From NCBI GenBank assembly GCA_964422195.1, contig CAYRAF010000001.1, positions 946 through 64,945 of the forward strand: DNA of 64,000 bases, read 5' to 3'. Each line of letters begins with the position of its first letter. The stretch's first letter is position 1. Below are positions 8,350 through 47,764 of this stretch, piece by piece. The notes under the pieces are model-generated. The model had not been told where the DNA came from. It worked only from the letters and a program-made list of their open reading frames with translations, and did not search any database. Made by a program: the position numbers and the translations under genes. The DNA comes from an uncultured Muribaculaceae bacterium (GTDB taxonomy: Bacteria > Bacillota_I > Bacilli_A > RF39 > UBA660).

Positions 8350-9441
8350 TTAATCTGCCTCCTCTGTTAACTTAACTTTAGCGGTATGTTCTTTACCATT
8401 TCTTATGTAAGTAATATTAACTGTATCTCCTACTTTATGTTTAAATAATTCATATCTTAAGTATCCTACTGAAACTACTTTTTGATTATCTATTTTTATA
8501 ATAATATCACCTTTTTTAATACCTGCTTTTCCAGCTCCAGAATTTTTATAAACTTCCGCAACTACAGCACCTTCAGTAATATCGCCAACATTAAATCCAT
8601 ATTGATATAAAGCAGTAGTATTAGATACATTTATTAATGTAACACCAAGCATTGGTCTTTTGATCGCTTTTCCACTTTCTAATTCATTTATATGTGCCAT
8701 AGCATACTCTATAGGAATAGCAAATCCCATACCTTCTATTTCGTCTTGAACTAATTTCATTGAATTAATTCCAATAACTTCACCATTTATATTAAGTAAA
8801 GGTCCACCAGAATTACCTGGATTAATAGCAGCATCAGTTTGTAAAACCTTCATAGCATAATTTGCTGAAGAAGAATCACCAACAGCTACTTCTACTATTC
8901 TATTTCTACCTGATAAAATACCACTAGTTACTGTTCCTCTATAATCATATCCAAGCGGAGAACCAACAGTAAATACTGAATCCCCTAATTTAGATTTTTC
9001 ACTATTACCAATCTCTGCAACTGCTAATACCTTATTTGCAGGTATTGTGATTACAGCTAAATCTAAGTACTCATCTCCTCCAACATAAGTAGCTTTTACT
9101 TCTTCATCTGTTGATAAAGTTATCCTTATATCTTTGGAACTTGAAACAACATGATAATTAGTTAATATATACCCCTTATCATTTATTTTTTTATAAACAA
9201 ATCCAGTTCCACTACTAGCTAATTTATTATTAGAATAATTTCTTATTAATACAACAGCATTATATACTTTTTCTACAGAAGCACTAATACCATCTTTATC
9301 AATAATAGTTGTTTTTTTATAAACTGTACTATTTTCAAATAATTTTTTACATAGTGGACTAGTCATAAAGAAAAACATACAAGCTGCCCCAACTATCACT
9401 GAAAATATTACTAAACATATTCTTATACTTTTTTCTCTCAT
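8350..9441 (-). CDS. htrA: HtrA/DegP-family serine protease with PDZ domain, membrane anchored
   Basis: N-terminal TM. Catalytic triad context: H..D and GNSGGPLLN. C-terminal PDZ domain. Confidence 0.85.
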   Translation of the reverse strand: MREKSIRICLVIFSVIVGAACMFFFMTSPLCKKLFENSTVYKKTTIIDKDGISASVEKVYNAVVLIRNYSNNKLASSGTGFVYKKINDKGYILTNYHVVSSSKDIRITLSTDEEVKATYVGGDEYLDLAVITIPANKVLAVAEIGNSEKSKLGDSVFTVGSPLGYDYRGTVTSGILSGRNRIVEVAVGDSSSANYAMKVLQTDAAINPGNSGGPLLNINGEVIGINSMKLVQDEIEGMGFAIPIEYAMAHINELESGKAIKRPMLGVTLINVSNTTALYQYGFNVGDITEGAVVAEVYKNSGAGKAGIKKGDIIIKIDNQKVVSVGYLRYELFKHKVGDTVNITYIRNGKEHTAKVKLTEEAD

Positions 9442-10388
9442 TATAACCTCTCCATTTCTATATTCTTTATATCTTCCCAGTTAGAAGGAAATCCCATCCT
9501 ATCATATACCTTATTGATTGTTATAGTATGTAAATTATATTCTAAGTTGTTTATACACCTCTTTATCTCTTCAACCATATTAGAAAACTCATATTTACTA
9601 AGCATTCTCTTTAATATTATAACTAAAGCAAACAAATCATCTTTACCATAAATATATTCGCCATCCATTTTATCTATATTAAGTAATTTATGATAAATAC
9701 AATCATCTATAGAAACCTTAGTTCTATTCTCATAAACTATATCTTCATGAGCACATAAATTACGATAATTAGCCAATATTGGTAAATACCTATTCAATTC
9801 CTCTACACTTATATTATATTGATCAGCCAAAGCTTTTTGATCATCAATTTTTAATATTGCAAATAATTCAGTAACTATTCCAAAGGATAAAACTTTAACT
9901 AATACCCATAAAGGAACATAACCATAATTAGTAATATAATGAAGCGTCGCAGAATGTTGAGCACCATTTGCTCTTACTTGCTTCTTCATCTTTTTTATTA
10001 AATCATTTACTTGCTTACTCTTAGCTGAATCTTCAACAAAGTTTTTAGGATTCAAATAATCTTTTTCTTTATATCCATATTTTTTTGATAATTGATAGGA
10101 TATCATAGATTTCAAATTATTTTCAATAACTAATAAATTTTTAAATAAAATATATCTAAAATCGCGATCAAATAGGAATAAGCTATATAATTCTTCAAAA
10201 GTAGTACCAGCTAAAAAAGATTTATCTTTACTAGACTTCATAAATAAATGTCTATATCCATTTATAAAGAAATAATTCTCTCTAAATAAAACTTCTTTAG
10301 CTAAAGCTTCATCATTAATTAATAAACCTTTAAATTTAAGAATTTCTACTTGTTCATCTAAATTTTTAAATTGCTTTATCCCCGCCAC
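9441..10388 (-). CDS. Abi_2 (AbiD/AbiF-like) abortive-infection family protein
   Basis: The N-terminus (KQFKNLDEQVEILKFKGLLINDEALAKEVLFRENYFFINGY) matches the Abi_2 family signature. Its stop overlaps the htrA start (TAATG). Confidence 0.55.
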   Translation of the reverse strand: MAGIKQFKNLDEQVEILKFKGLLINDEALAKEVLFRENYFFINGYRHLFMKSSKDKSFLAGTTFEELYSLFLFDRDFRYILFKNLLVIENNLKSMISYQLSKKYGYKEKDYLNPKNFVEDSAKSKQVNDLIKKMKKQVRANGAQHSATLHYITNYGYVPLWVLVKVLSFGIVTELFAILKIDDQKALADQYNISVEELNRYLPILANYRNLCAHEDIVYENRTKVSIDDCIYHKLLNIDKMDGEYIYGKDDLFALVIILKRMLSKYEFSNMVEEIKRCINNLEYNLHTITINKVYDRMGFPSNWEDIKNIEMERL

Positions 10389-11325: not shown

Positions 11326-11356
11326 AAAAAAGAAACTTTTAAGTTTCTTTTCTTTA
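11324..11356. terminator. Bidirectional rho-independent terminator between convergent genes
   Basis: A8-AGAAACTT-TTAA-AAGTTTCT-T4 hairpin, seen in the sequence. Confidence 0.45.
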
Positions 11357-11388
11357 CAATTAAACTACATAATATTCTTAAAACTTAT

Positions 11389-12921
11389 TTACTTCTTGTC
11401 TATCTTATCTTTTACAAAGCTTGCAAGGGCATTATTATCAATTGCATTATTAACCATTTTCATACCAAAACTTTTTGTTTTACCTACTTGCTTTCCTGGG
11501 TTAGTACCATGAACTATAGTATTATTAGCCCCATCCATTCGAGCATTACTAAGACCTTTCTTGGTTTTAATGAAATCATCAACCTGTCTTAGGTTAGTCA
11601 TATCACGTTTTGTTTCTTTTTCATATGTATGTCTAGCTCCAGTATTACGATATTTAGCATATATAATACCAAAGTAAATAAAACCACCAAATAGGAATAA
11701 CCAACTATAATCAGAATCAACAAAGAACATCATTAAGAAACATAATATTTCTATAATAGTTGAAATACCAACTAGTTTAGGCATATGAATAGGAACACTT
11801 CCCATTGTTTCTTTTGTTCTAGCATTAACTGCAACATAGTGAAGTAATTTTTTATCCCCACTAACCTGTTGATAACTATATAGCCATACTGGCAAATATG
11901 CTGCTTGCCATTGCTGACCTTTAGTATTCATATCTTCACTGGACCAAGCAACTCCACGATCATATTGCTTTAATGTATCATTTGCTGCAAAACGAGCAAC
12001 ATCTTTTGCTTGAGTATCCACTAATGTTTGTAAATCATCTATATTTGTATCACGCTTTTCAGAAGTATATCCTTTTAAATAATTAGCATTATATTTAACA
12101 CAATTTTCTGTATCAAAAGGCATAATAGCATTAATAATATTATTGGTTTTTTCTTTTGATGTAGTATTCAAGCGATCTGAACTTGATTCAACCGATAATC
12201 CTTGTATAGTTAAATCAAATTCTCTTTCTACATGATATAAATCAGCATCATATCTAGCTTCTTGATCATCACCAGAACCTACATAATACTTTCTTCTTAG
12301 ATGTTCTCCTTCACCATTTAAATTAACATGAGCATTAACATCAACTAACATATATGGAAAATATACTCCCATAATATTATTTGTAGTAAACTCAGCTTTA
12401 AATTTTGGATGAGCAAAAAATTTTCTTTTTCCAACAAATTGTTCAATAGAAACTTGTGCATCATTTTTAGTAACATTAAAAGGTAATACAACATCTGGAA
12501 CAGCGCCGTTTGGTATTTGCTCATTAACAGATAACGTATTTCTACACCAGTGACATCTAGCTTGGTTAGCAGAAGCTGTATCAATAACAACTTCTGCACC
12601 ACAACTACTACACTTAAATGTTAATACATCTTTAGTATCAGCCACTATATTTTGAGCACCTGAACCAATTACTTTTCCTTTTAATGAACTAATATCTTCC
12701 ACCATTCCTTTTACCTTTTCAGGTTCAAATTCATGGCGACAAAAGTTACATCTTAGTTTTCCATTTTTTACATTTGTTTCTATATCTGTTGCTCCACACT
12801 TTGGACATTTGTTTTGTCCATCTTTTGCTCCTACATCTGTTTTAATAACAGTTGTTTCTGAAGATGTAGTAGGAACTTCTTTATTCTCTGGAGCAGCCAC
12901 CTTACTATCATCATTATTCAT
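11389..12921 (-). CDS. YdjG/YdjH-like protein: two N-terminal zinc ribbons plus C-terminal TM helices
   Basis: CPKCG...CNFC and CSSCG...CHWC ribbons. C-terminal hydrophobic helices. Sits upstream of, and in an operon with, the SPFH protein, as in the B. subtilis pspA-ydjGHI arrangement. Confidence 0.5.
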   Translation of the reverse strand: MNNDDSKVAAPENKEVPTTSSETTVIKTDVGAKDGQNKCPKCGATDIETNVKNGKLRCNFCRHEFEPEKVKGMVEDISSLKGKVIGSGAQNIVADTKDVLTFKCSSCGAEVVIDTASANQARCHWCRNTLSVNEQIPNGAVPDVVLPFNVTKNDAQVSIEQFVGKRKFFAHPKFKAEFTTNNIMGVYFPYMLVDVNAHVNLNGEGEHLRRKYYVGSGDDQEARYDADLYHVEREFDLTIQGLSVESSSDRLNTTSKEKTNNIINAIMPFDTENCVKYNANYLKGYTSEKRDTNIDDLQTLVDTQAKDVARFAANDTLKQYDRGVAWSSEDMNTKGQQWQAAYLPVWLYSYQQVSGDKKLLHYVAVNARTKETMGSVPIHMPKLVGISTIIEILCFLMMFFVDSDYSWLFLFGGFIYFGIIYAKYRNTGARHTYEKETKRDMTNLRQVDDFIKTKKGLSNARMDGANNTIVHGTNPGKQVGKTKSFGMKMVNNAIDNNALASFVKDKIDKK

Positions 12922-12924
12922 AAG

Positions 12925-14151
12925 CTATAGTCCTAAAACTTCTGCTTTTACTTTATCATATTCTTCTTGTGAAATAGCTCCAGCATCAAGAAGTTTTTTC
13001 ATTTCTAATAGCTTTGCAGTTGGATCTTGAGCTGGTGCAGCTTGAGTTTCTGGTGCTGCAGCAGGTTGTTGATTAAATCCTGGTTGGTAAGCAGGTGGAG
13101 TATTAGGTTGTTGCATACCTCCCATCATACCACCGGCAGCATTCATACCCATTCCCATAAAGGCCATACCTGCTCCTCCTCCGTTTTCTCCAGCAGCTTG
13201 CATACCACGAGCAACAGATTGTTGCATAAACGCATTTCCTCTTGCTCCACTTAATGCATCAGCAGATTTAACATCTTTCATTAATTGTTTAGTATCTTCA
13301 TCATATTCAATAGCTAAAATAGCTGTTTTTACGATTTCAAGTCCACGATCAGTTTTCCATTGATAAGCATCTTCTACAGCTTGAGCCATAGCTTGTGCAA
13401 ATCCAATTTGATCTCCTTGAATCTTAGAAATTCTATTTCCTTTTGAAGGATCATTTGTATAATTTGAGAATGCAGCAGATAATGTACCAACTACTTCATT
13501 AAATAATTGTTCTCCTGCAGGATTATCCATATCTGCAAAATCAAATATTGGTGCTCCTGGCTGTAAATAAGATGCAGGAACAAAGTTCTTAACAAATAGT
13601 AATGGATCTACTATTTTTAATGTATAAGTACCACGAGTTACAGCTCCTACTTGTGTACCAAAGAAAGCATCATCCCAATATATTTCAGATTGTGTTCCAA
13701 ATCTGTTATTAGGAATTTCCTTTAAATTAACATAGAATGCTAATTGTTGTGCTCCTGGTTGACCACCAAATTTTACCTTTTCCCATGTAGACTTAATTGT
13801 TTGTCCAAAAATACCATCTCCAGCAAACATAGATTTTGAATTAGGATCATCAGATCTATATTCAAATCCACCTGCTTCGGCCACTATACCTGTTATTTGT
13901 CCATCTTGCATTGTAATTAATGCAGTGCCTTCAGGTACAATTATTTTACTTCCGTTTGTAATAATATTTTCATTACCTTTTGTGTTTTCTCCTCTTCCGT
14001 TATTTGTTCCTTGTGGAACAGCTTGAAATACTGCAGCTGTTGGTGTAATATCACTTCTTGGTGTATAAAAATCTTTCCATTGATCAGCAAAGGTTCCACC
14101 CAAAGCTCCAGAAAACGCTTTAATAAATCCCATAAAATACCTCCTTATCAT
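12925..14151 (-). CDS. SPFH/band-7-like protein (COG4260 virion-core-like, YdjI-like) with Gly/Met-rich linker and C-terminal SHOCT domain
   Basis: Matches the YdjI family pattern. The C-terminus (LLEMKKLLDAGAISQEEYDKVKAEVL) is a typical SHOCT domain. Confidence 0.6.
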   Translation of the reverse strand: MIRRYFMGFIKAFSGALGGTFADQWKDFYTPRSDITPTAAVFQAVPQGTNNGRGENTKGNENIITNGSKIIVPEGTALITMQDGQITGIVAEAGGFEYRSDDPNSKSMFAGDGIFGQTIKSTWEKVKFGGQPGAQQLAFYVNLKEIPNNRFGTQSEIYWDDAFFGTQVGAVTRGTYTLKIVDPLLFVKNFVPASYLQPGAPIFDFADMDNPAGEQLFNEVVGTLSAAFSNYTNDPSKGNRISKIQGDQIGFAQAMAQAVEDAYQWKTDRGLEIVKTAILAIEYDEDTKQLMKDVKSADALSGARGNAFMQQSVARGMQAAGENGGGAGMAFMGMGMNAAGGMMGGMQQPNTPPAYQPGFNQQPAAAPETQAAPAQDPTAKLLEMKKLLDAGAISQEEYDKVKAEVLGL

Positions 14152-14312
14152 TTTAAGATTTATTTAATAGATAGATAAAATTCATTATCATCCCTATCCT
14201 TTTTAATTATATCATATTTTTTTATATTTAGAATTAAAAAAAACATCGAATTTATTTCAATGTTTTTTATTGATTTTATCCTAATAATTTCTAGTTTAAA
14301 GATCCAAGCACA

Positions 14313-14930
14313 TTATTTTATTTCTATATTAATAAGTTCATTATTATCATCAAACTCCAATTTAAAAATTTCACAATTTTTTATTACCCCTTCTAATAAT
14401 ATTTTACATTTATAACTATATCTTAATTTATCATCAACAAGTTCAATATCACACCATTTTCTTAATAAATATGAAATAGCTGTAGCATGACTAACAATTG
14501 CAATTCTTTTTTCTTTACATTCATTTAAAATTTTCATAATTATAGCGTACATTCTATTCCTTACTTCTTTTTGACTTTCACCATTACCATATTTATAATT
14601 TTCATCTAAGAACTGTTTTCTTTCAAAGTTTTCAGGTAATTCTCCCCAATATGATATTCCAAATTTTCTTTCTCCTAAATCGCTAACTACATTTATCTCT
14701 AAATCATTTTTTTCTGCAATATATTTAGCCGTTTGAATAGTCCTAACATAATTTGAAGAAAACAAAACATCAATGTTAGTTAATTCTTTAGATGTAAGCT
14801 TTTCCTTTGCTAAATTCTCTCCTTCTATCGAAAGACAATACTTTTCGTTTTGAAGCTGCATTTTATCACTATTGTATTCATTATTAACTAAGAAAGCTTT
14901 TGAATGCCTTATTAAGTATAATGTTGTCAT
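14313..14930 (-). CDS. Histidine phosphatase family protein (PGM-like)
   Basis: N-terminal LYLIRHSKA (RHG-type motif). Later SHATAI His motif. Confidence 0.7.
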   Translation of the reverse strand: MTTLYLIRHSKAFLVNNEYNSDKMQLQNEKYCLSIEGENLAKEKLTSKELTNIDVLFSSNYVRTIQTAKYIAEKNDLEINVVSDLGERKFGISYWGELPENFERKQFLDENYKYGNGESQKEVRNRMYAIIMKILNECKEKRIAIVSHATAISYLLRKWCDIELVDDKLRYSYKCKILLEGVIKNCEIFKLEFDDNNELINIEIK

Positions 14931-14975
14931 AAATTAATTACCTCCATATAATTATTAAAAACTAGTTTTATATAC

Positions 14976-15449
14976 TTAGTATATAATTTTATCATCTTTT
15001 TCTAAAAAGTCATTAAATGTTTTTATAGTTTCATCTCTATAAATAGATTTTAATTCTAATTTATCACTATTAGATTTTATTTCTATTCCTTTAATGAAGT
15101 CATATATATAATCATCTTTAAAACCAATTTTAGCAGCATCATCAGTAGTATTTCCATAATATACAATTTTGATATTAGCCCAGATTATAGCAGATAAACA
15201 CATTGGACAAGGATAACAAGTTGTATATAATTCACATTCACTCAAATCATAAGAACCTAGAAATTTACAAGCATTCCTTATAGCAACTATTTCTGCATGT
15301 GCAGTAGGATCGTTAGAGCTTAAAACTTGATTTGACCCCTTTCCTATAATCTTACCATCTTTTACAACACAAGCTCCAAAAGGACCTCCAGCATTTGTTT
15401 TTAAATTTTCTTCTGCTAATTCCTTAGCCTCTTCCATATATTTATTCAT
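14976..15449 (-). CDS. guaD: Guanine deaminase (CDA fold, GuaD-like)
   Basis: GGPFGACVVKDG...SNDPTAHAEIVAIRNACK...CYPCPMCLSAI aligns closely with B. subtilis GuaD. 157 aa. Confidence 0.75.
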   Translation of the reverse strand: MNKYMEEAKELAEENLKTNAGGPFGACVVKDGKIIGKGSNQVLSSNDPTAHAEIVAIRNACKFLGSYDLSECELYTTCYPCPMCLSAIIWANIKIVYYGNTTDDAAKIGFKDDYIYDFIKGIEIKSNSDKLELKSIYRDETIKTFNDFLEKDDKIIY

Positions 15450-15489
15450 ATTATCTCCTATATCCTCTTATCAATATCTTAGTATTTTT

Positions 15490-15930
15490 CTATTTTGTTT
15501 TGTAATTTTTTAAAAATACTTCTAATTGTTCTTTATTATCAAAAATATCTTCAAAAATATTATACAATGTATCGGTAGTTTCATATTCACCTATTGCATA
15601 GCATTTTTTCCCTAATCCATAGGCTATCCCTGATTCAATATGCGCAGCTTTTCCTGCAGGTAAAACTAATAATAAATTCCTAGAACTTTTCTCTCCCTCT
15701 AAATCATCATGAAAAAGATTCAATACAATATCACTTTTTAACCCTAATGATTCAAATTCCTGCTGTCTTTCTTCTGGTGTTTGATCTTTATTACCATATC
15801 CCCAATTATCCTCATTTTTTAAAAAGCAATAATAAGAAATACTATATTTATCAAACATATCACAAATTCTTAATATATTATCTTTATTTCTTGCTCTACC
15901 TGCAATAAAAAATTCATATTTAATATCCAT
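15490..15930 (-). CDS. Nucleoside 2-deoxyribosyltransferase-like protein
   Basis: N-terminal FFIAGRAR and C-terminal HIESGIAYGLGKKCY resemble the DRTase-fold motifs (AGP...E.G.A.GKP). Confidence 0.5.
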   Translation of the reverse strand: MDIKYEFFIAGRARNKDNILRICDMFDKYSISYYCFLKNEDNWGYGNKDQTPEERQQEFESLGLKSDIVLNLFHDDLEGEKSSRNLLLVLPAGKAAHIESGIAYGLGKKCYAIGEYETTDTLYNIFEDIFDNKEQLEVFLKNYKTK

Positions 15931-16057
15931 ATTACCAACTCCAATATAATTATATCATATAAATTCTTAATTTGTTCACCTAGCTTGTTCTACTAGCTTA
16001 AGATAAATAAAGGGTTTGTAAAGTTTTGTAGCCTACATAACAGGGTTCCAATGTTCT
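15931..16057 (-). repeat. Leader/promoter module copy A. Contains a GTAGGCTAC palindrome, GCTAG-N2-GAAC direct repeats, an extended -10 TGATATAAT and a GGAG RBS.
   Basis: Near-identical to the copy at 18209-18335 and related to the copy at 17157-17290. Each sits immediately 5' of a minus-strand gene. Confidence 0.6.
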
Positions 16058-16101
16058 TATTGATATCTTAGTAATTTTTTACATATTTTTAAATTATATT
16101 A

Positions 16102-16130
16102 TTGATTACAGAACATTTGTTTGCTATAAT
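16102..16130 (+). promoter_or_regulatory. Sigma-A-type promoter for the small toxin-like mRNA: TTGATT-17 nt-TGcTATAAT
   Basis: Seen in the sequence. The predicted TSS at about 16138 coincides with the start of a 12-nt sequence (GGATACGTTTGA) that is complementary to 16360-16371. Confidence 0.45.
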
Positions 16131-16195
16131 ATATCTTGGATACGTTTGAAATATATCAGATGTTTTCCCTTCTAATTAAGAAGGGAGGTGGTATC

Positions 16196-16285
16196 GTGAC
16201 TAAAAGAGAGAAATCTCTATTTTTCATTATACTCCTTCTATTTATTATAATATTTATACTCTTGTATATTTTATTTTTTAGATAG
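16196..16285 (+). CDS. 29-aa hydrophobic peptide VTKREKSLFFIILLLFIIIFILLYILFFR. Candidate type I toxin.
   Basis: Strong SD AAGGGAGGTG, 5-nt spacer, GTG start. The SD is sequestered by the upstream CCCTTC/GAAGGG hairpin. Single TM helix with a charged N-terminus. Not in the ORF track because it is too short. Confidence 0.45.
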   Translation: MTKREKSLFFIILLLFIIIFILLYILFFR

Positions 16286-16287
16286 AA

Positions 16288-16399
16288 ATTAAAAACATCT
16301 GATTTCAACAATCGTTGACTTCAGATGCTATCCCAAGGGATTACGTCTGATTCGAGCAATCAAACGTATCCTTTTTTATTATATGAAGTTTCCCTCATC
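16288..16399 (-). ncRNA. Putative antisense antitoxin sRNA convergent with the toxin mRNA 3' UTR
   Basis: Minus-strand promoter TTGATA-17 nt-TGaTATAGT (plus coordinates 16435-16407). The minus-strand terminator hairpin CATCTGA...TCAGATG (16296-16327) is followed by a T-run, right next to the toxin stop codon. Overlap with the toxin mRNA is about 90 nt. Confidence 0.3.
16338..16378 (+). terminator. Putative terminator of the toxin mRNA, also the 3' half of the 5'/3' terminal pairing
   Basis: GGAT(T)ACGT...ACGTATCC followed by TTTTTT, seen in the sequence. Confidence 0.35.
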
Positions 16400-16478
16400 T
16401 GTATACACTATATCATAAATTTGAATTTTTATCAAGTTCTATAAACTTCTATCAATATCTTAGTGTTTTTTTATTATT

Positions 16479-17156
16479 TTATTTTTTTAATTTTCTTAGT
16501 GTTAAGACATGCCAGTTTTTCTGTTCTTTTCCACCTTCGTTATGATATTCTTCAATTTCAAATAAATTTTTTCTTAAGTTATCAATATCCTCTTTACTAA
16601 AATAAGCAAAAAATCTTTTTTCTTTTGTTTGTTTATCCTCTAAAATTTTATAATTATATTTAGTTCCATTAGGAAGAATCTCTGCTTCTGGATGAACTTC
16701 TGCGTTTTGAAAATTAATTATTAATAATCCATTATCTGATAATCCATTATATGCTACATCAAACAATTTTTTCATATCATCCATATCCAAATGCGGATTT
16801 CTCCATGATACTATAAGATCTGCTTTAAAAGCAAAAGTATCATCATACTCGTCAGATAAAAAATTATACTTTTTAACTTTTTTAATGCCAATTCTTTCTT
16901 GTTCGTTTAAAAAAGCATCAACAGTGTCCGTAGCTATAACATCATAACCTGCAGATTGAAGCATAAAAGCAAGCTGTCCACAACCACTTCCAAATTCAAT
17001 TATTTTTTTATTCTTATCTTTTTGTAGACCAGCATCTACATAGTTAAATAATCTTTCCCATTTTTCTGTTTCAGGCTCAATTTTATTTTGTTCTATATAT
17101 TCAAGTGCTCCACCAGAATTATACATATTTATAGTTTTTGAATTATGTTGGCTCAT
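16479..17156 (-). CDS. Class I SAM-dependent methyltransferase
   Basis: Motif I IIEFGSGCGQLAF, acidic motif II VIATD. 225 aa. Confidence 0.8.
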   Translation of the reverse strand: MSQHNSKTINMYNSGGALEYIEQNKIEPETEKWERLFNYVDAGLQKDKNKKIIEFGSGCGQLAFMLQSAGYDVIATDTVDAFLNEQERIGIKKVKKYNFLSDEYDDTFAFKADLIVSWRNPHLDMDDMKKLFDVAYNGLSDNGLLIINFQNAEVHPEAEILPNGTKYNYKILEDKQTKEKRFFAYFSKEDIDNLRKNLFEIEEYHNEGGKEQKNWHVLTLRKLKK

Positions 17157-17290
17157 ACAATATACCTCCTATATATGTATATATATAATACCATAGTAAT
17201 TGCTACTTTGTCACCTAGCTGGTTCTATTAGTCTAAAATAGATAAAGGTTTTGTGAAGTTCTGTAGCCTACGGCCTCTAAAAAGTGTATA
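17157..17290 (-). repeat. Leader/promoter module copy B (diverged), with GTAGGCTAC
   Basis: Shares the GTAGGCTACAGAACTTCACAAAACCTTTATCTATTTTAGACTAATAGAACCAGCTAGGTGA core (minus sense) with copies A and C. Confidence 0.5.
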
Positions 17291-17309
17291 TTTTTAATAT
17301 TTAGGCATA

Positions 17310-17334
17310 GAAAAAAGCCCGCAAATACGGACTT
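17310..17334 (-). terminator. Rho-independent terminator. A paralogous copy of the rpsI terminator, preceded by a duplicated rpsI 3'-end fragment.
   Basis: Minus strand GTCCGTATTTGCGGGC + T6. The upstream 21 nt (AATTTAGTAAGAGATAGGAAA) are identical to the last codons and stop of rpsI. Confidence 0.5.
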
Positions 17335-17464
17335 TCCAAAAGCTTTCCTATCTCTTACTAAATTAGCGTCACTTTATTTATGCGAGTTTACGGACATTTT
17401 GTAGCCTACTCGTAGCCTATTCTTAGTAGTACCTTAGTAATTTTCTTCTTTTCTATATATATTA

Positions 17465-18208
17465 TTAATATCCTCCATCAATTACCAATATTTCACTATT
17501 AACATAGCTTGATTCATCACTTGATAAATAATAAATTGTTTTTGCAATTTCTTCTGGTTTAGCAAATCTTTCTAAATATATTTTAGCATTTTCATCATCT
17601 ATATATTCTTGCGGCAATTCTTTATTCATATCAGTATCTGCCCAACCAATTGCAACTGCATTTACTCTAATGTTTGGCTTAAACTGATATGATAAATCTC
17701 TAGTAAGACTCTGTAATCCTATTTTAGAGACATTGTAATCTAAACATTCAGGAGAAATAGTTTTTGTACCATTGGTAGATGAGACATTTACTATAGTACT
17801 ACCCTTTTTCATATATTTTGAAGCCTCTCTTGAAACAATGAAGGCACCAATTACATTTACTTCTAATGTTCTTTTAAACTCCTCAACAGTAATACTTTCA
17901 AAATCTCTATCAAATACAATTCCTGCATTATTAACTACAGCATCAATTCTACCAAATACATTTATTATTTGCTCAATCATATTTTTTACTTCTAATTCGT
18001 TAGACACGTCAGCTTTAATTGCTAATGCTTTATTGTTAAATTCTTTTTCAACATATTCTTTCAATTCATCTGCAGCACTTGCAATTTTATTATAATTAAT
18101 AACGACATTATAGCCTTCTGAAGCAAACTTAATTATAGTAGCTTTGCCTATTCCTCTAGCACTACCAGTTACTAAAACAACTTTTTTATCCATTATTATC
18201 AACTCCAA
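17465..18208 (-). CDS. Short-chain dehydrogenase/reductase (SDR, FabG-like)
   Basis: TGSARGIGKA cofactor motif, NAG, YNVSK catalytic motif. Confidence 0.8.
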   Translation of the reverse strand: MELIIMDKKVVLVTGSARGIGKATIIKFASEGYNVVINYNKIASAADELKEYVEKEFNNKALAIKADVSNELEVKNMIEQIINVFGRIDAVVNNAGIVFDRDFESITVEEFKRTLEVNVIGAFIVSREASKYMKKGSTIVNVSSTNGTKTISPECLDYNVSKIGLQSLTRDLSYQFKPNIRVNAVAIGWADTDMNKELPQEYIDDENAKIYLERFAKPEEIAKTIYYLSSDESSYVNSEILVIDGGY

Positions 18209-18335
18209 TATAATTATATCATAAAAATTCTTAATTTGTTCAACTAGCTTGTTCTACTAGCTTAAGGTAAATAGAGGTTTCCCGAAGACTTTGTAGCCTA
18301 CCTGTAGCCTACTCGTAGCCTACGACGCTAGAAAC
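18209..18335 (-). repeat. Leader/promoter module copy C, with three tandem 11-bp-period GTAGGCTAC palindromes (18293, 18304, 18315)
   Basis: Seen in the sequence. About 90% identical to copy A over roughly 75 nt, including the extended -10 TGATATAAT and the RBS. Confidence 0.6.
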
Positions 18336-18362
18336 GTTCAAAAAGAAGATTTTTAGTCATGC

Positions 18363-18388
18363 AAAAAAGCCCGTAATACGGACTTTTT
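18363..18388 (-). terminator. rpsI rho-independent terminator
   Basis: Minus strand GTCCGTATTACGGGC followed by T6. Confidence 0.55.
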
Positions 18389-18410
18389 GAAACATATTGA
18401 ATAGTATTTC

Positions 18411-18833
18411 CTATCTCTTACTAAATTGTGGTGCACGTCTTGCTTTCTTTAAACCTGGTTTCTTTCTTTCTTTTACTCTAGAATCTCTTGTAATGAACCC
18501 TTCTGCTTTAAGAATTTTTCTAAAACTTGTTTCACTTGTTGGATCAGTATCTTTATCCATTTCAAGTAAAGCTCTAGTGATTCCTAAACGAATTGCTCCT
18601 GTTTGACCTGAGAATCCTCCACCTCTAACATCTACTTCTACATCAAAAGTTTCATTTGTATTAGTAGCAACTAAAGGTTGAGATAAATCCATAACTAAAG
18701 TTTCATAAGGTAAATATTCATGAACATCTTTACCATTAACAGTAATCTTACCAGATCCTGGGATTAATTTAACTCTAGCAATACTAGCTTTTCTACGTCC
18801 AGTTCCAGTATAAACATTTTTATCTTTTGCCAT
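18411..18833 (-). CDS. rpsI: 30S ribosomal protein S9
   Basis: Canonical S9 sequence, C-terminal ...[11 protein letters not shown]. Confidence 0.95.
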
Positions 18834-47423: not shown

Positions 47424-47764
47424 GGGGATGTAATGGTTTCGACGGGAATATTTGAGCTTAAGTAGCAAGTCGTAAGTTATACGTTACATACAAATTTAAA
47501 ATATCTGGAAACAGAAACGAATTAGCTTTCGCCTAAGTTTAGAAAGCACTACTATACTCTGATATCTACTAAGAGATATAGTGGTTCATTTTTGTAGGTT
47601 ATACTATTTAAGTGTCTATATTAAATAGCGAACTTTTATAGACTAGCTATAATGTTACTTGTTAGTTTGTTTACGTTATAGCAAATCTTTTAAACTAACT
47701 AAGCTTGTAGAAGCTTTTGTGTTAATATTTTCGGACAGCGGTTCAATTCCGCTCATCTCCACCA
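47424..47764 (+). ncRNA. ssrA: tmRNA (SsrA)
   Basis: 5' GGGGATGTAATGGTTTCGACGGG and 3' GGACAGCGGTTCAATTCCGCTCATCTCCACCA. TGcTATAAT promoter at 47406-47414. Predicted tag frame GGA...GCC TAA (47508-47537) encodes (A)GNRNELAFA. Confidence 0.85.

What the first reader, a model, noticed from the sequence alone, without database searches (positions are those of the whole stretch)
18293..18323. Iteron-like array: 9-bp palindrome GTAGGCTAC repeated with exact 11-bp periodicity
Three tandem copies sit at 18293, 18304 and 18315. Two copies at 11-bp spacing sit at 17401 and 17412, and there are single copies at 16028 and 17263. GTAG-G-CTAC is a palindrome, and one-helical-turn spacing places successive sites on the same DNA face. 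That looks like a cooperative operator for a dimeric DNA-binding protein rather than an RNA structure. All copies are confined to the 16-18.4 kb accessory island, always at the distal end of the leader modules or next to the duplicated terminator.
Basis: seen in the sequence. Interest (0 to 1): 0.55.

Follow-up and report, generated by a model that had tools for sequence, protein, structure and literature searches.

The report
Integrase arm-site repeats flanking rpsI cassettes
The 11-bp-spaced GTAGGCTAC repeats are most likely the accessory ("arm-type") binding sites of a tyrosine integrase, marking the borders of tiny integrase-less gene cassettes stacked behind the ribosomal protein S9 gene, not a repressor operator or a replication iteron.

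Summary
The window holds six exact GTAGGCTAC copies (read on the minus, gene-sense strand) against 0.1 expected. All lie in 16.0-18.3 kb, all point the same way, and the spacing is exactly 11 bp. The copy at 17412 has one mismatch.

The repeats sit at fixed distances from the 3' end of rpsI and from a duplicated copy of that end. A 3-copy array starts 87 nt after the rpsI stop. A 2-copy array ends 36 nt before the duplicate.

The same layout recurs in about 28 species-level genomes of uncultured low-GC gut and rumen Bacilli, with hypervariable cargo genes between the junctions.

Outside that clade, GTAGGCTAC arrays lie next to tyrosine integrase genes. In 57 of 63 metagenomic loci with an rpsI-specific integrase, a triple 11-bp-period array starts about 90 nt after the rpsI stop. 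The motif differs between lineages there.

I therefore read the arrays as P and P' arm-type sites of lambda-style att sites. The 16-18.4 kb stretch of the 11.3-18.4 kb island then looks like a tandem accretion of mini elements that lack an integrase.

No integrase was found in the window or in the clade loci, so current mobility is unproven. The operator reading is only partly supported.

The parts
18411..18833 (-). rpsI (ribosomal protein S9), the target gene of the integration site
   Evidence: ORF ending ...RRAPQFSKR. Homologues carry PF00380.
18407..18427 (-). Core copy 1: the last codons of rpsI plus stop (AATTTAGTAAGAGATAGGAAA)
   Evidence: A 21-bp exact direct repeat with 17344-17364 (D12).
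18363..18388 (-). rpsI terminator hairpin plus T-run. It lies in the P' arm, between core and array.
   Evidence: Read from the sequence. The T-run ends 40 nt before the array here and in more than 20 related junctions.
18293..18323 (-). The finding: 3 x GTAGGCTAC at an 11-bp period. Proposed P' arm-type site array, starting 87 nt after the rpsI stop.
   Evidence: The same position (88-91 nt) holds triple arrays in integrase-bearing rpsI elements.
18213..18260 (-). Conserved module CTAGTAGAACAAGCTAGTTG plus -35 and extended -10 promoter driving the SDR gene
17465..18193 (-). Cargo gene 1: short-chain dehydrogenase
   Evidence: Pfam adh_short_C2, E = 6e-59.
17421..17446 (-). Phased TAAG repeats at the cassette 3' end (AAAATTACTAAGGTACTACTAAGAAT)
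   Evidence: (D2/D4). Its function was not tested.
17401..17420 (-). 2-copy array (ATAGGCTAC GA GTAGGCTAC). Proposed P arm-type sites, ending 36 nt before core copy 2.
   Evidence: The 36-nt gap recurs in 15 junctions of other species.
17344..17364 (-). Core copy 2: the duplicated rpsI 3' end
17311..17336 (-). Duplicated terminator
   Evidence: (D9).
17263..17271 (-). Single GTAGGCTAC, 40 nt after the duplicated terminator (P' arm of the next unit)
16479..17156 (-). Cargo gene 2: class I methyltransferase-like
   Evidence: Weak Pfam methyltransferase hits.
16037..16478 (.). Small cassette resembling a type I toxin-antitoxin, bounded on its right by the 16028 copy
16028..16036 (-). Single GTAGGCTAC at a 'short' junction (cassette end - array - module - promoter)
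15949..15996 (-). Module plus promoter for the next operon (146-aa protein, deaminase, histidine phosphatase; 14313-15930)
11326..18410 (-). The whole variable island between rpsI and the ZIP transporter gene
   Evidence: A relative with 94% identical RpsI has only one GNAT gene (0.76 kb) between the same flanking genes.

Best explanation
The GTAGGCTAC arrays are most likely arm-type (accessory) binding sites of a lambda-style tyrosine integrase that has an N-terminal arm-binding domain.

They form the P' arm: rpsI core, then terminator, then 40 nt, then 2-3 copies. They also form the P arm: 1-2 copies, then 36 nt, then core. Both belong to att sites whose crossover core is the 3' end of rpsI.

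The 16-18.4 kb stretch is a head-to-tail accretion of very small, integrase-less, att-flanked units. Each unit carries one gene, or one small toxin-like locus, with its own promoter. The variable island as a whole runs from 11.3 to 18.4 kb.

In such a system, integrase monomers bind the phased arm sites and the core at the same time. This bends the DNA into an intasome that sets the direction of integration or excision.

Shown here: the site geometry, the duplicated core, conservation across species, the association of identical and analogous arrays with integrase genes, and hypervariable cargo.

Inferred: that the integrase N-terminal domain, rather than an excisionase or another factor, reads the 9-mer. 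Also inferred: that the units can still be moved by an integrase supplied in trans.
For: 1. Geometry in the window. The array of 3 starts 87 nt after the rpsI stop. The array of 2 ends 36 nt before a 21-bp exact copy of the rpsI end, followed by a copy of the terminator and another 9-mer 40 nt later.

2. The same geometry in about 28 low-GC Bacilli genomes. Terminator-to-array is 40 nt in more than 20 junctions. Array-to-core is 36 nt in 15 junctions. Internal cores keep the FSKR-stop coding with synonymous variants, so they are displaced rpsI ends.

3. Outside the clade, GTAGGCTAC arrays lie 8-450 bp from tyrosine integrase genes or fragments in L002, L005, L008, L009, L014, L017, L025, L034, L050 and L051 (PF00589). 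They lie next to tRNA or rpsI 3' ends at about 90 nt. L051 shows integrase, array x3, partial tRNA, then array: a complete attP.

4. In 57 of 63 metagenomic loci with an rpsI-convergent integrase, a triple 11-bp-period array starts 88-120 nt after the rpsI stop. None of 277 control windows reached that score. Motifs differ by lineage (ATGCAACA, TTGCAACA, CAAGGAGCA, GTAAACAGC), and L017 has GTAGGCTAC.

5. Viral homologues of these integrases carry 11-bp-period repeats of yet other motifs just past the integrase stop.

6. Cargo turnover is high. The 68 sense ORFs downstream of rpsI in 23 species fall into 61 families. A small cassette is 82-97.5% identical between species whose rpsI is 72-79% identical. 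The island is 7.1 kb here and 0.76 kb in a close relative.

7. rpsI 3' ends are a known tyrosine-integrase target, and integrase-less att-flanked relics (CIMEs) accrete in tandem (PMC5704250, PMC5090054). Arm-binding domains read arm sites near the core (PMC8138268).
Against: - No integrase gene was found in the 64-kb window, in the roughly 28 clade loci (8 kb each), or within 9-10 kb downstream of rpsI in three further relatives.
- Pfam does not recognise the N-terminal domain of the associated integrases, so 'arm-binding domain' rests on position and motif resemblance.
- Left and right junction parts recombine freely at the array itself, which could also mean the array is a crossover point.
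- In some relatives the arrays are decayed, so those in the window could be recent relics rather than working sites.
- In the short-promoter class the last copy sits at the -35 position, so a transcriptional role is not excluded.
Confidence: 0.78

Rival explanations
1. The array is a transcriptional operator. A regulator binds the phased 9-mers cooperatively and controls the cassette promoters.
For: The 11-bp phasing is exact. Arrays lie upstream of promoters. In about 10 junctions the extended -10 starts exactly 16 nt after the last copy, which puts ...GCTACA at the -35 position.
Against: Many arrays precede a core copy and terminator rather than a promoter, and some units are empty. All copies are unidirectional. 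No regulator co-occurs. Equivalent arrays in related elements are non-palindromic and flank integrase genes.
Confidence: 0.08
2. The arrays are themselves the crossover sites of a cassette recombinase. This would resemble integron attC/attI sites, or a serine recombinase cutting the 2-bp spacer. The units between arrays would then be the mobile cassettes.
For: All combinations of left parts (terminator+N40, or gene end) and right parts (N36+core, module+promoter, short promoter) meet at the array. 'Empty' units exist. Contig L001 is 100% identical to the window from the first base of the triple array onward and only 56-92% identical before it.
Against: L001 is probably a k=31 assembly chimera. 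The triple array is exactly 31 nt, and the same sample also yields a contig 100% identical to the window. The duplicated rpsI ends with synonymous variants point to a crossover inside rpsI. In integrase-bearing relatives the arrays lie about 30-100 nt from the target gene end. Deletions between the directly repeated arrays explain the mixed junctions.
Confidence: 0.07
3. The 9-mers are binding sites for an excisionase or another accessory factor of the same recombination system, rather than for the integrase itself.
For: Excisionase sites are also short, phased direct repeats. Nothing here identifies the reader protein. L005 and L009 carry a second, different triple repeat next to the GTAGGCTAC triple.
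Against: The same motif occurs on both arms in a 2 + 3 arrangement, as integrase arm sites do in lambda (my own knowledge). Excisionase sites are normally confined to one arm.
Confidence: 0.06
4. The array is a set of iterons of a replication origin, or a structured RNA.
For: It consists of tandem direct repeats.
Against: No rep gene, DnaA boxes or unwinding element is nearby. The units are 9 bp, against 17-22 bp for iterons. RNA folding gives z = -0.25. Rfam gives no hit. The array lies after a terminator.
Confidence: 0.01

Closest known systems
Arm-type sites of phage lambda attP (P1, P2, P'1-P'3), bound by the Int N-terminal domain
   Same: Both are short direct repeats, distinct from the core, on both sides of the core. 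Both show a 2 + 3 arrangement and roughly helical phasing. The integrase gene lies next to the P' arm in full-size relatives.
   Different: The sequence differs: GTAGGCTAC, a near-palindrome. The tandem spacing is exactly 11 bp. No integrase is present in cis here. Binding has not been tested. The lambda layout is recalled from my own knowledge.
rpsI-targeting integrative elements of streptococci (IMESag-rpsI; ICE/IME with tyrosine integrases; PMC5090054, PMC5704250)
   Same: Both integrate at the 3' end of rpsI and duplicate the gene end.
   Different: Those elements are about 9 kb or larger and encode an integrase, a relaxase and replication functions. The units here are 0.14-2.2 kb with one cargo gene and no mobility genes.
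CIMEs (cis-mobilizable elements) and tandem accretion (PMC5704250)
   Same: Both are integrase-less segments that keep attL and attR, stacked in tandem at the target gene end.
   Different: The units here are far smaller and more numerous. Each has a promoter fused to the P' arm. They recur in more than 20 species. Mobilisation in trans has not been shown.
Integron cassette arrays
   Same: Both form a fixed platform with tandem, co-oriented, mostly single-gene units and hypervariable cargo.
   Different: There is no attC-type imperfect inverted repeat and no adjacent IntI. The cassettes carry their own promoters. The sites follow lambda-type arm/core architecture.
Plasmid iterons
   Same: Both are tandem direct repeats.
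   Different: Unit length differs. There is no Rep gene or origin features. The context is chromosomal, at the end of a gene.

Membership tests
Arm-type sites of an att site of an arm-binding-domain tyrosine integrase | Short repeats, different from the core sequence, on both arms of a core that is duplicated at the element ends | tested here: met
   Cores lie at 18407-18427 and 17344-17364. Arrays lie 87 nt downstream of the rpsI stop and 36 nt upstream of the second core.
Arm-type sites of an att site of an arm-binding-domain tyrosine integrase | The same position is occupied by such repeats in homologous elements that encode the integrase | tested here: met
   57 of 63 loci with an rpsI-specific integrase have a triple 11-bp array 88-120 nt after the rpsI stop, against 0 of 277 controls. 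GTAGGCTAC itself occurs in L017, L014, L050 and L051.
Arm-type sites of an att site of an arm-binding-domain tyrosine integrase | A cognate integrase encoded in the element or genome | tested here: not met
   phmmer finds no integrase in the window or clade loci or downstream of rpsI in relatives. The rest of these genomes could not be searched.
Arm-type sites of an att site of an arm-binding-domain tyrosine integrase | Direct binding by the integrase N-terminal domain | not testable with these tools
   This needs a gel-shift or footprint. Pfam does not recognise the N-terminal domain.
CIME / tandem accretion | attL and attR retained, with integration and transfer genes lost | tested here: met
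   The SDR unit at 17365-18406 is flanked by core copies with both arms. It has one cargo gene and no mobility genes.
CIME / tandem accretion | Mobilisable in cis or trans by a related integrase | not testable with these tools
   Only indirect evidence is available: cargo turnover and cross-species identity of one cassette.
Operator of a dimeric repressor | Symmetric sites overlapping a promoter, with a cognate regulator nearby | tested here: not met
   The copies are unidirectional. Many arrays have no promoter. No regulator recurs.
Iterons | 17-22 bp repeats next to a rep gene and an AT-rich unwinding region | tested here: not met
   The units are 9 bp, and no rep gene is present.
Integron attC | Imperfect inverted repeats (R''-L''/L'-R') of 57-141 bp, with an IntI integrase | tested here: not met
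   No such inverted repeats appear at the junctions. No IntI is present.

The most novel reading that the evidence does not exclude
An uncultured clade of gut and rumen Bacilli may maintain an integron-like cassette platform behind rpsI, built on lambda-type att sites rather than attC sites.

In this reading, promoter-bearing single-gene units of 0.14-2.2 kb are each bounded by a complete arm/core/arm junction. An rpsI-specific integrase with an arm-binding domain, encoded elsewhere or on incoming elements, would capture, excise and shuffle them in trans.

The last arm site doubles as the -35 of the cassette promoter. Integrase occupancy could therefore couple recombination to expression.
Probability: 0.3. 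Interest if true: 0.7.

Novelty: new variant of a known kind. Interest (0 to 1): 0.5.

Why it matters
The array itself is a new example of a known device: integrase arm sites. The GTAGGCTAC motif does not appear in this role in the searched literature.

The setting is the less ordinary part. More than 20 uncultured Bacilli species carry tandem mini units at the end of an essential ribosomal gene. Each unit is single-gene, carries its own promoter, is flanked by att sites, and has no integrase nearby.

If these units are still moved in trans, this would be a cassette-capture system analogous to integrons but mechanistically different. It would also give a simple sequence signature for finding such platforms and their cargo in metagenomes: a target-gene end, about 90 nt, then a triple 11-bp repeat.

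Tried and rejected
- Literature search for the 9-mer: only primer coincidences.
- Rfam at gathering and E-value thresholds: nothing in the region.
- RNA fold of the array: not better than shuffles.
- Viral-contig scans for single-copy patterns (array+AAA...ATAAATAAAGG; terminator+N36-44+9-mer): no hits for the first, and 16 unrelated chance hits plus L050 again for the second.
- L001 as evidence for a crossover at the array: rejected as a probable 31-mer assembly chimera.
- Search for the second att site of L017-like elements within 5-kb flanks: not found, because the elements are larger.
- Look-ups of window proteins and RpsI homologues to find an integrase or strain-level cassette gain or loss. 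They found the same arrangement in four samples, one diverged SDR allele, and decayed arrays in relatives, but no integrase.
- Pfam on the integrase N-terminus: no family.
- PDB sequence search: only the catalytic and core-binding domains match.
- Phage database: the closest named phages (Butyrivibrio phages Idris and Arawn, Fusobacterium phages) are about 33-36% identical, and I know of no att-site characterisation for them (own knowledge, not checked here).

Full report
**Observation**

The motif GTAGGCTAC occurs six times exactly in the 64-kb window: at 16028, 17263, 17401, 18293, 18304 and 18315. Shuffles give 0.10 expected, and none reached six. A seventh copy at 17412 has one mismatch: ATAGGCTAC on the minus strand. 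Tandem Repeats Finder reports 18292-18323 as a period-11 array of 2.9 copies.

The motif as written lies on the minus strand. That is the sense strand of rpsI (18411-18833) and of every gene downstream of it. The 9-mer is a 4+1+4 near-palindrome with an asymmetric centre. All copies share one polarity, so they are direct repeats.

**Local anatomy, read on the minus strand**

1. rpsI ends in AATTTAGTAAGAGATAGGAAA (18427-18407).
2. Its terminator follows (18388-18363).
3. A 40-nt gap follows.
4. The triple array follows (18323-18293).
5. A conserved module and an extended -10 promoter follow.
6. A short-chain dehydrogenase (SDR) gene follows (18193-17465).
7. A phased TAAG motif follows.
8. The double array follows (17420-17401).
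9. A 36-nt gap follows.
10. An exact 21-bp second copy of the rpsI end follows (17364-17344).
11. A second copy of the terminator follows.
12. A further 40-nt gap follows.
13. A single 9-mer follows (17271-17263).
14. A module and promoter follow.
15. A methyltransferase-like gene follows.
16. A roughly 450-bp small cassette follows.
17. A single 9-mer follows (16036-16028).
18. A module and promoter follow.
19. A three-gene operon follows.

The SDR unit is therefore bracketed by two copies of the rpsI end. A 9-mer array lies on the inner side of each copy.

**Relatives**

A scan of 185,579 species genomes for two copies at 11-bp spacing returned 45 loci. By my own estimate from the base count, chance predicts at most about 17.

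About 28 of the 45 are low-GC (24-31%) metagenome-assembled genomes from ruminant and other guts. Their records label them Erysipelotrichaceae, Bacilli, Mycoplasma or Tenericutes. In 22 of these loci (23 counting the window itself) the first array lies directly downstream of rpsI.

Across these loci:
- Arrays have one to three copies.
- Exact neighbours are 11 bp apart in 48 of 50 cases.
- The last copy is followed by AAA in 49 of 63 arrays.

Distances are strikingly fixed:
- The terminator T-run to the array start is 40 nt in more than 20 junctions.
- The array end to an internal copy of the rpsI end is a 36-nt gap in 15 junctions.
- The array end to an extended -10 is 16 nt in about 10 junctions.

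Internal copies of the rpsI end keep the FSKR-stop reading with synonymous codon variants, for example AGTAAACGTTAG against AGTAAGAGATAG. They are therefore displaced gene ends from different hosts.

Units between successive cores measure 0.14-2.2 kb, and some are empty.

Cargo is hypervariable:
- The 68 sense-strand ORFs within 4 kb of rpsI in 23 species fall into 61 families.
- The first ORF belongs to 19 families in 20 loci.
- A relative whose RpsI is 94% identical has a single acetyltransferase gene between rpsI and the ZIP transporter gene. The window has 7.1 kb there.

**Link to integrases**

Outside the clade, GTAGGCTAC arrays lie 8-450 bp from tyrosine integrase genes or fragments (PF00589). 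The loci are L002, L005, L008, L009, L014, L017, L025 and L034, plus phage contigs L050 (five copies) and L051.

These arrays sit about 60-95 nt from the 3' end of a tRNA gene, or of rpsI in L017. L051 shows integrase, a triple array, a partial tRNA, then a further array. That is a complete attP with sites on both arms.

These integrases share an N-terminal motif, NG(F/Y)GSV..SG.RRKP...RVT, ahead of the core-binding and catalytic domains. The catalytic residues are conserved.

A metagenome scan with relatives of the L017 integrase gave 80 loci, and 63 of them have rpsI convergent to the integrase gene. In 57 of these 63, a triple 11-bp-period repeat starts 88-120 nt after the rpsI stop, most often at 90 nt. 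None of 277 control windows reached the same score.

The repeat sequence differs by lineage: ATGCAACA, TTGCAACA, CAAGGAGCA or GTAAACAGC. L017 has GTAGGCTAC. None of the others is palindromic.

Viral homologues likewise carry 11-bp-period repeats of other motifs just past the integrase stop.

The triple array of the window starts 87 nt after the rpsI stop. That matches the position of this element family's P' arm.

**Interpretation**

The arrays are best read as arm-type sites of a lambda-style att site whose core is the rpsI end. The 16-18.4 kb stretch then looks like a tandem accretion of integrase-less mini elements.

This matches established knowledge:
- rpsI ends are known targets of tyrosine-integrase elements that excise as circles (PMC5090054).
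- Integrase-less att-flanked relics accrete in tandem (PMC5704250).
- N-terminal arm-binding domains read accessory sites near the core (PMC8138268).

The 2 + 3 arrangement mirrors lambda P1-P2 and P'1-P'3 (my own knowledge).

Two steps are inferred and not shown. First, that the integrase reads the 9-mer, rather than an excisionase or another factor. Second, that the units are still mobile.

**Caveats**

- No integrase was found in the window, in the clade loci, or downstream of rpsI in further relatives.
- Pfam does not recognise the integrase N-terminus.
- In some relatives the arrays and cores are visibly decayed. A continuum from intact to relic sites therefore exists.
- Junction parts combine freely at the array. 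I attribute this to deletions between the directly repeated arrays, but a crossover at the array is not excluded.
- Contig L001 looked like proof of such a crossover. It is 100% identical to the window from the first base of the array onward and only 56-92% identical before it. It is probably a chimera. The triple array is exactly 31 nt, which I believe is the k-mer size of that assembly collection (own knowledge, not checked). The same sample also yields a contig identical to the window.

**Evidence of horizontal movement**

- The small cassette at 16037-16478 is 82-97.5% identical between species whose rpsI is only 72-79% identical.
- A strain with the same RpsI protein carries a diverged SDR allele.

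**Rejected readings**

- RNA structure: fold z = -0.25 and no Rfam hit.
- Iterons: 9-bp units and no rep gene.
- Operator as sole function: many arrays have no promoter, and no regulator recurs.

The fixed 16-nt spacing to an extended -10, with the last copy at the -35 position, leaves room for a regulatory side effect.

**Verdict**

The finding is real and non-random. It is best explained as integrase arm-type sites, which is a new member of a known kind. They mark an unusually fine-grained, promoter-bearing, integrase-less cassette stack at rpsI, which is a new variant of tandem accretion. Interest is moderate.

Noticed in passing
window 16037-16478: A roughly 450-bp cassette with no long ORF that looks like a type I toxin-antitoxin locus. 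It has a plus-strand promoter, an RBS, and a 29-aa hydrophobic peptide (16196-16285). It also has a 12-nt 5'/3' inverted repeat (GGATACGTTTGA) and a convergent minus-strand promoter. It is 82-97.5% identical in five other species whose rpsI is only 72-79% identical. Rfam gives no hit.
   Followed up: partly
window 18236-18263 and 15972-15999: Two 13-bp direct repeats (AAGCTAGTAGAAC / AAGCTAGTTGAAC) sit in the promoter module 32-33 nt after the arrays. The second repeat overlaps the -35. The module is conserved in more than 10 species, and its function is unknown.
   Followed up: partly
window 17421-17446, 16040-16066, 16447-16467, 15465-15490: A phased TAAG-repeat motif (AAAATTACTAAGRTAYYNNTAAGAAC) follows the stop codon of each cargo gene. 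It is usually about 20 nt before the P-arm array. It may be a further protein-binding element.
   Followed up: no
L001 (Logan contig) versus window 18324/18323: The identity breakpoint falls exactly at the outer edge of the 31-nt triple array. This is most likely a k=31 assembly chimera between two species that share the array.
   Followed up: yes
L025 and L032: A second family of tandem att-like junctions carries the same 9-mer (CT/TT spacers). They lie next to tRNA genes and a truncated integrase, in low-GC rumen genomes.
   Followed up: partly
L005 7640-7670 and L009 4410-4444: A different triple repeat with a 10-bp period (CTCCGGCGYC or GGCGTCCTTA) lies immediately upstream of the GTAGGCTAC triple. 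It may be the site of a second protein.
   Followed up: no
L019, L027, L033, L049: In deltaproteobacterial phage-like contigs, GTAGGCTAC pairs and an inverted pair flank a replication-type module with a DnaB-like helicase. There the same 9-mer may have a different role.
   Followed up: no
L132-L211: The start of the triple arm array after the rpsI stop clusters at about 90, 100, 110 and 120 nt, in steps of about one helical turn. Some loci show tandem remnants of the rpsI end.
   Followed up: partly
window 11389-14151: The distal part of the island holds a 510-aa zinc-ribbon protein and an SPFH/SHOCT protein, with locally higher GC (0.37). No recognisable att remnants were found. An Abi_2 gene (9441-10388) lies just outside the island and is conserved in relatives.
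   Followed up: partly
window 47424-47764: A tmRNA gene (Rfam RF00023, 150 bits).
   Followed up: no
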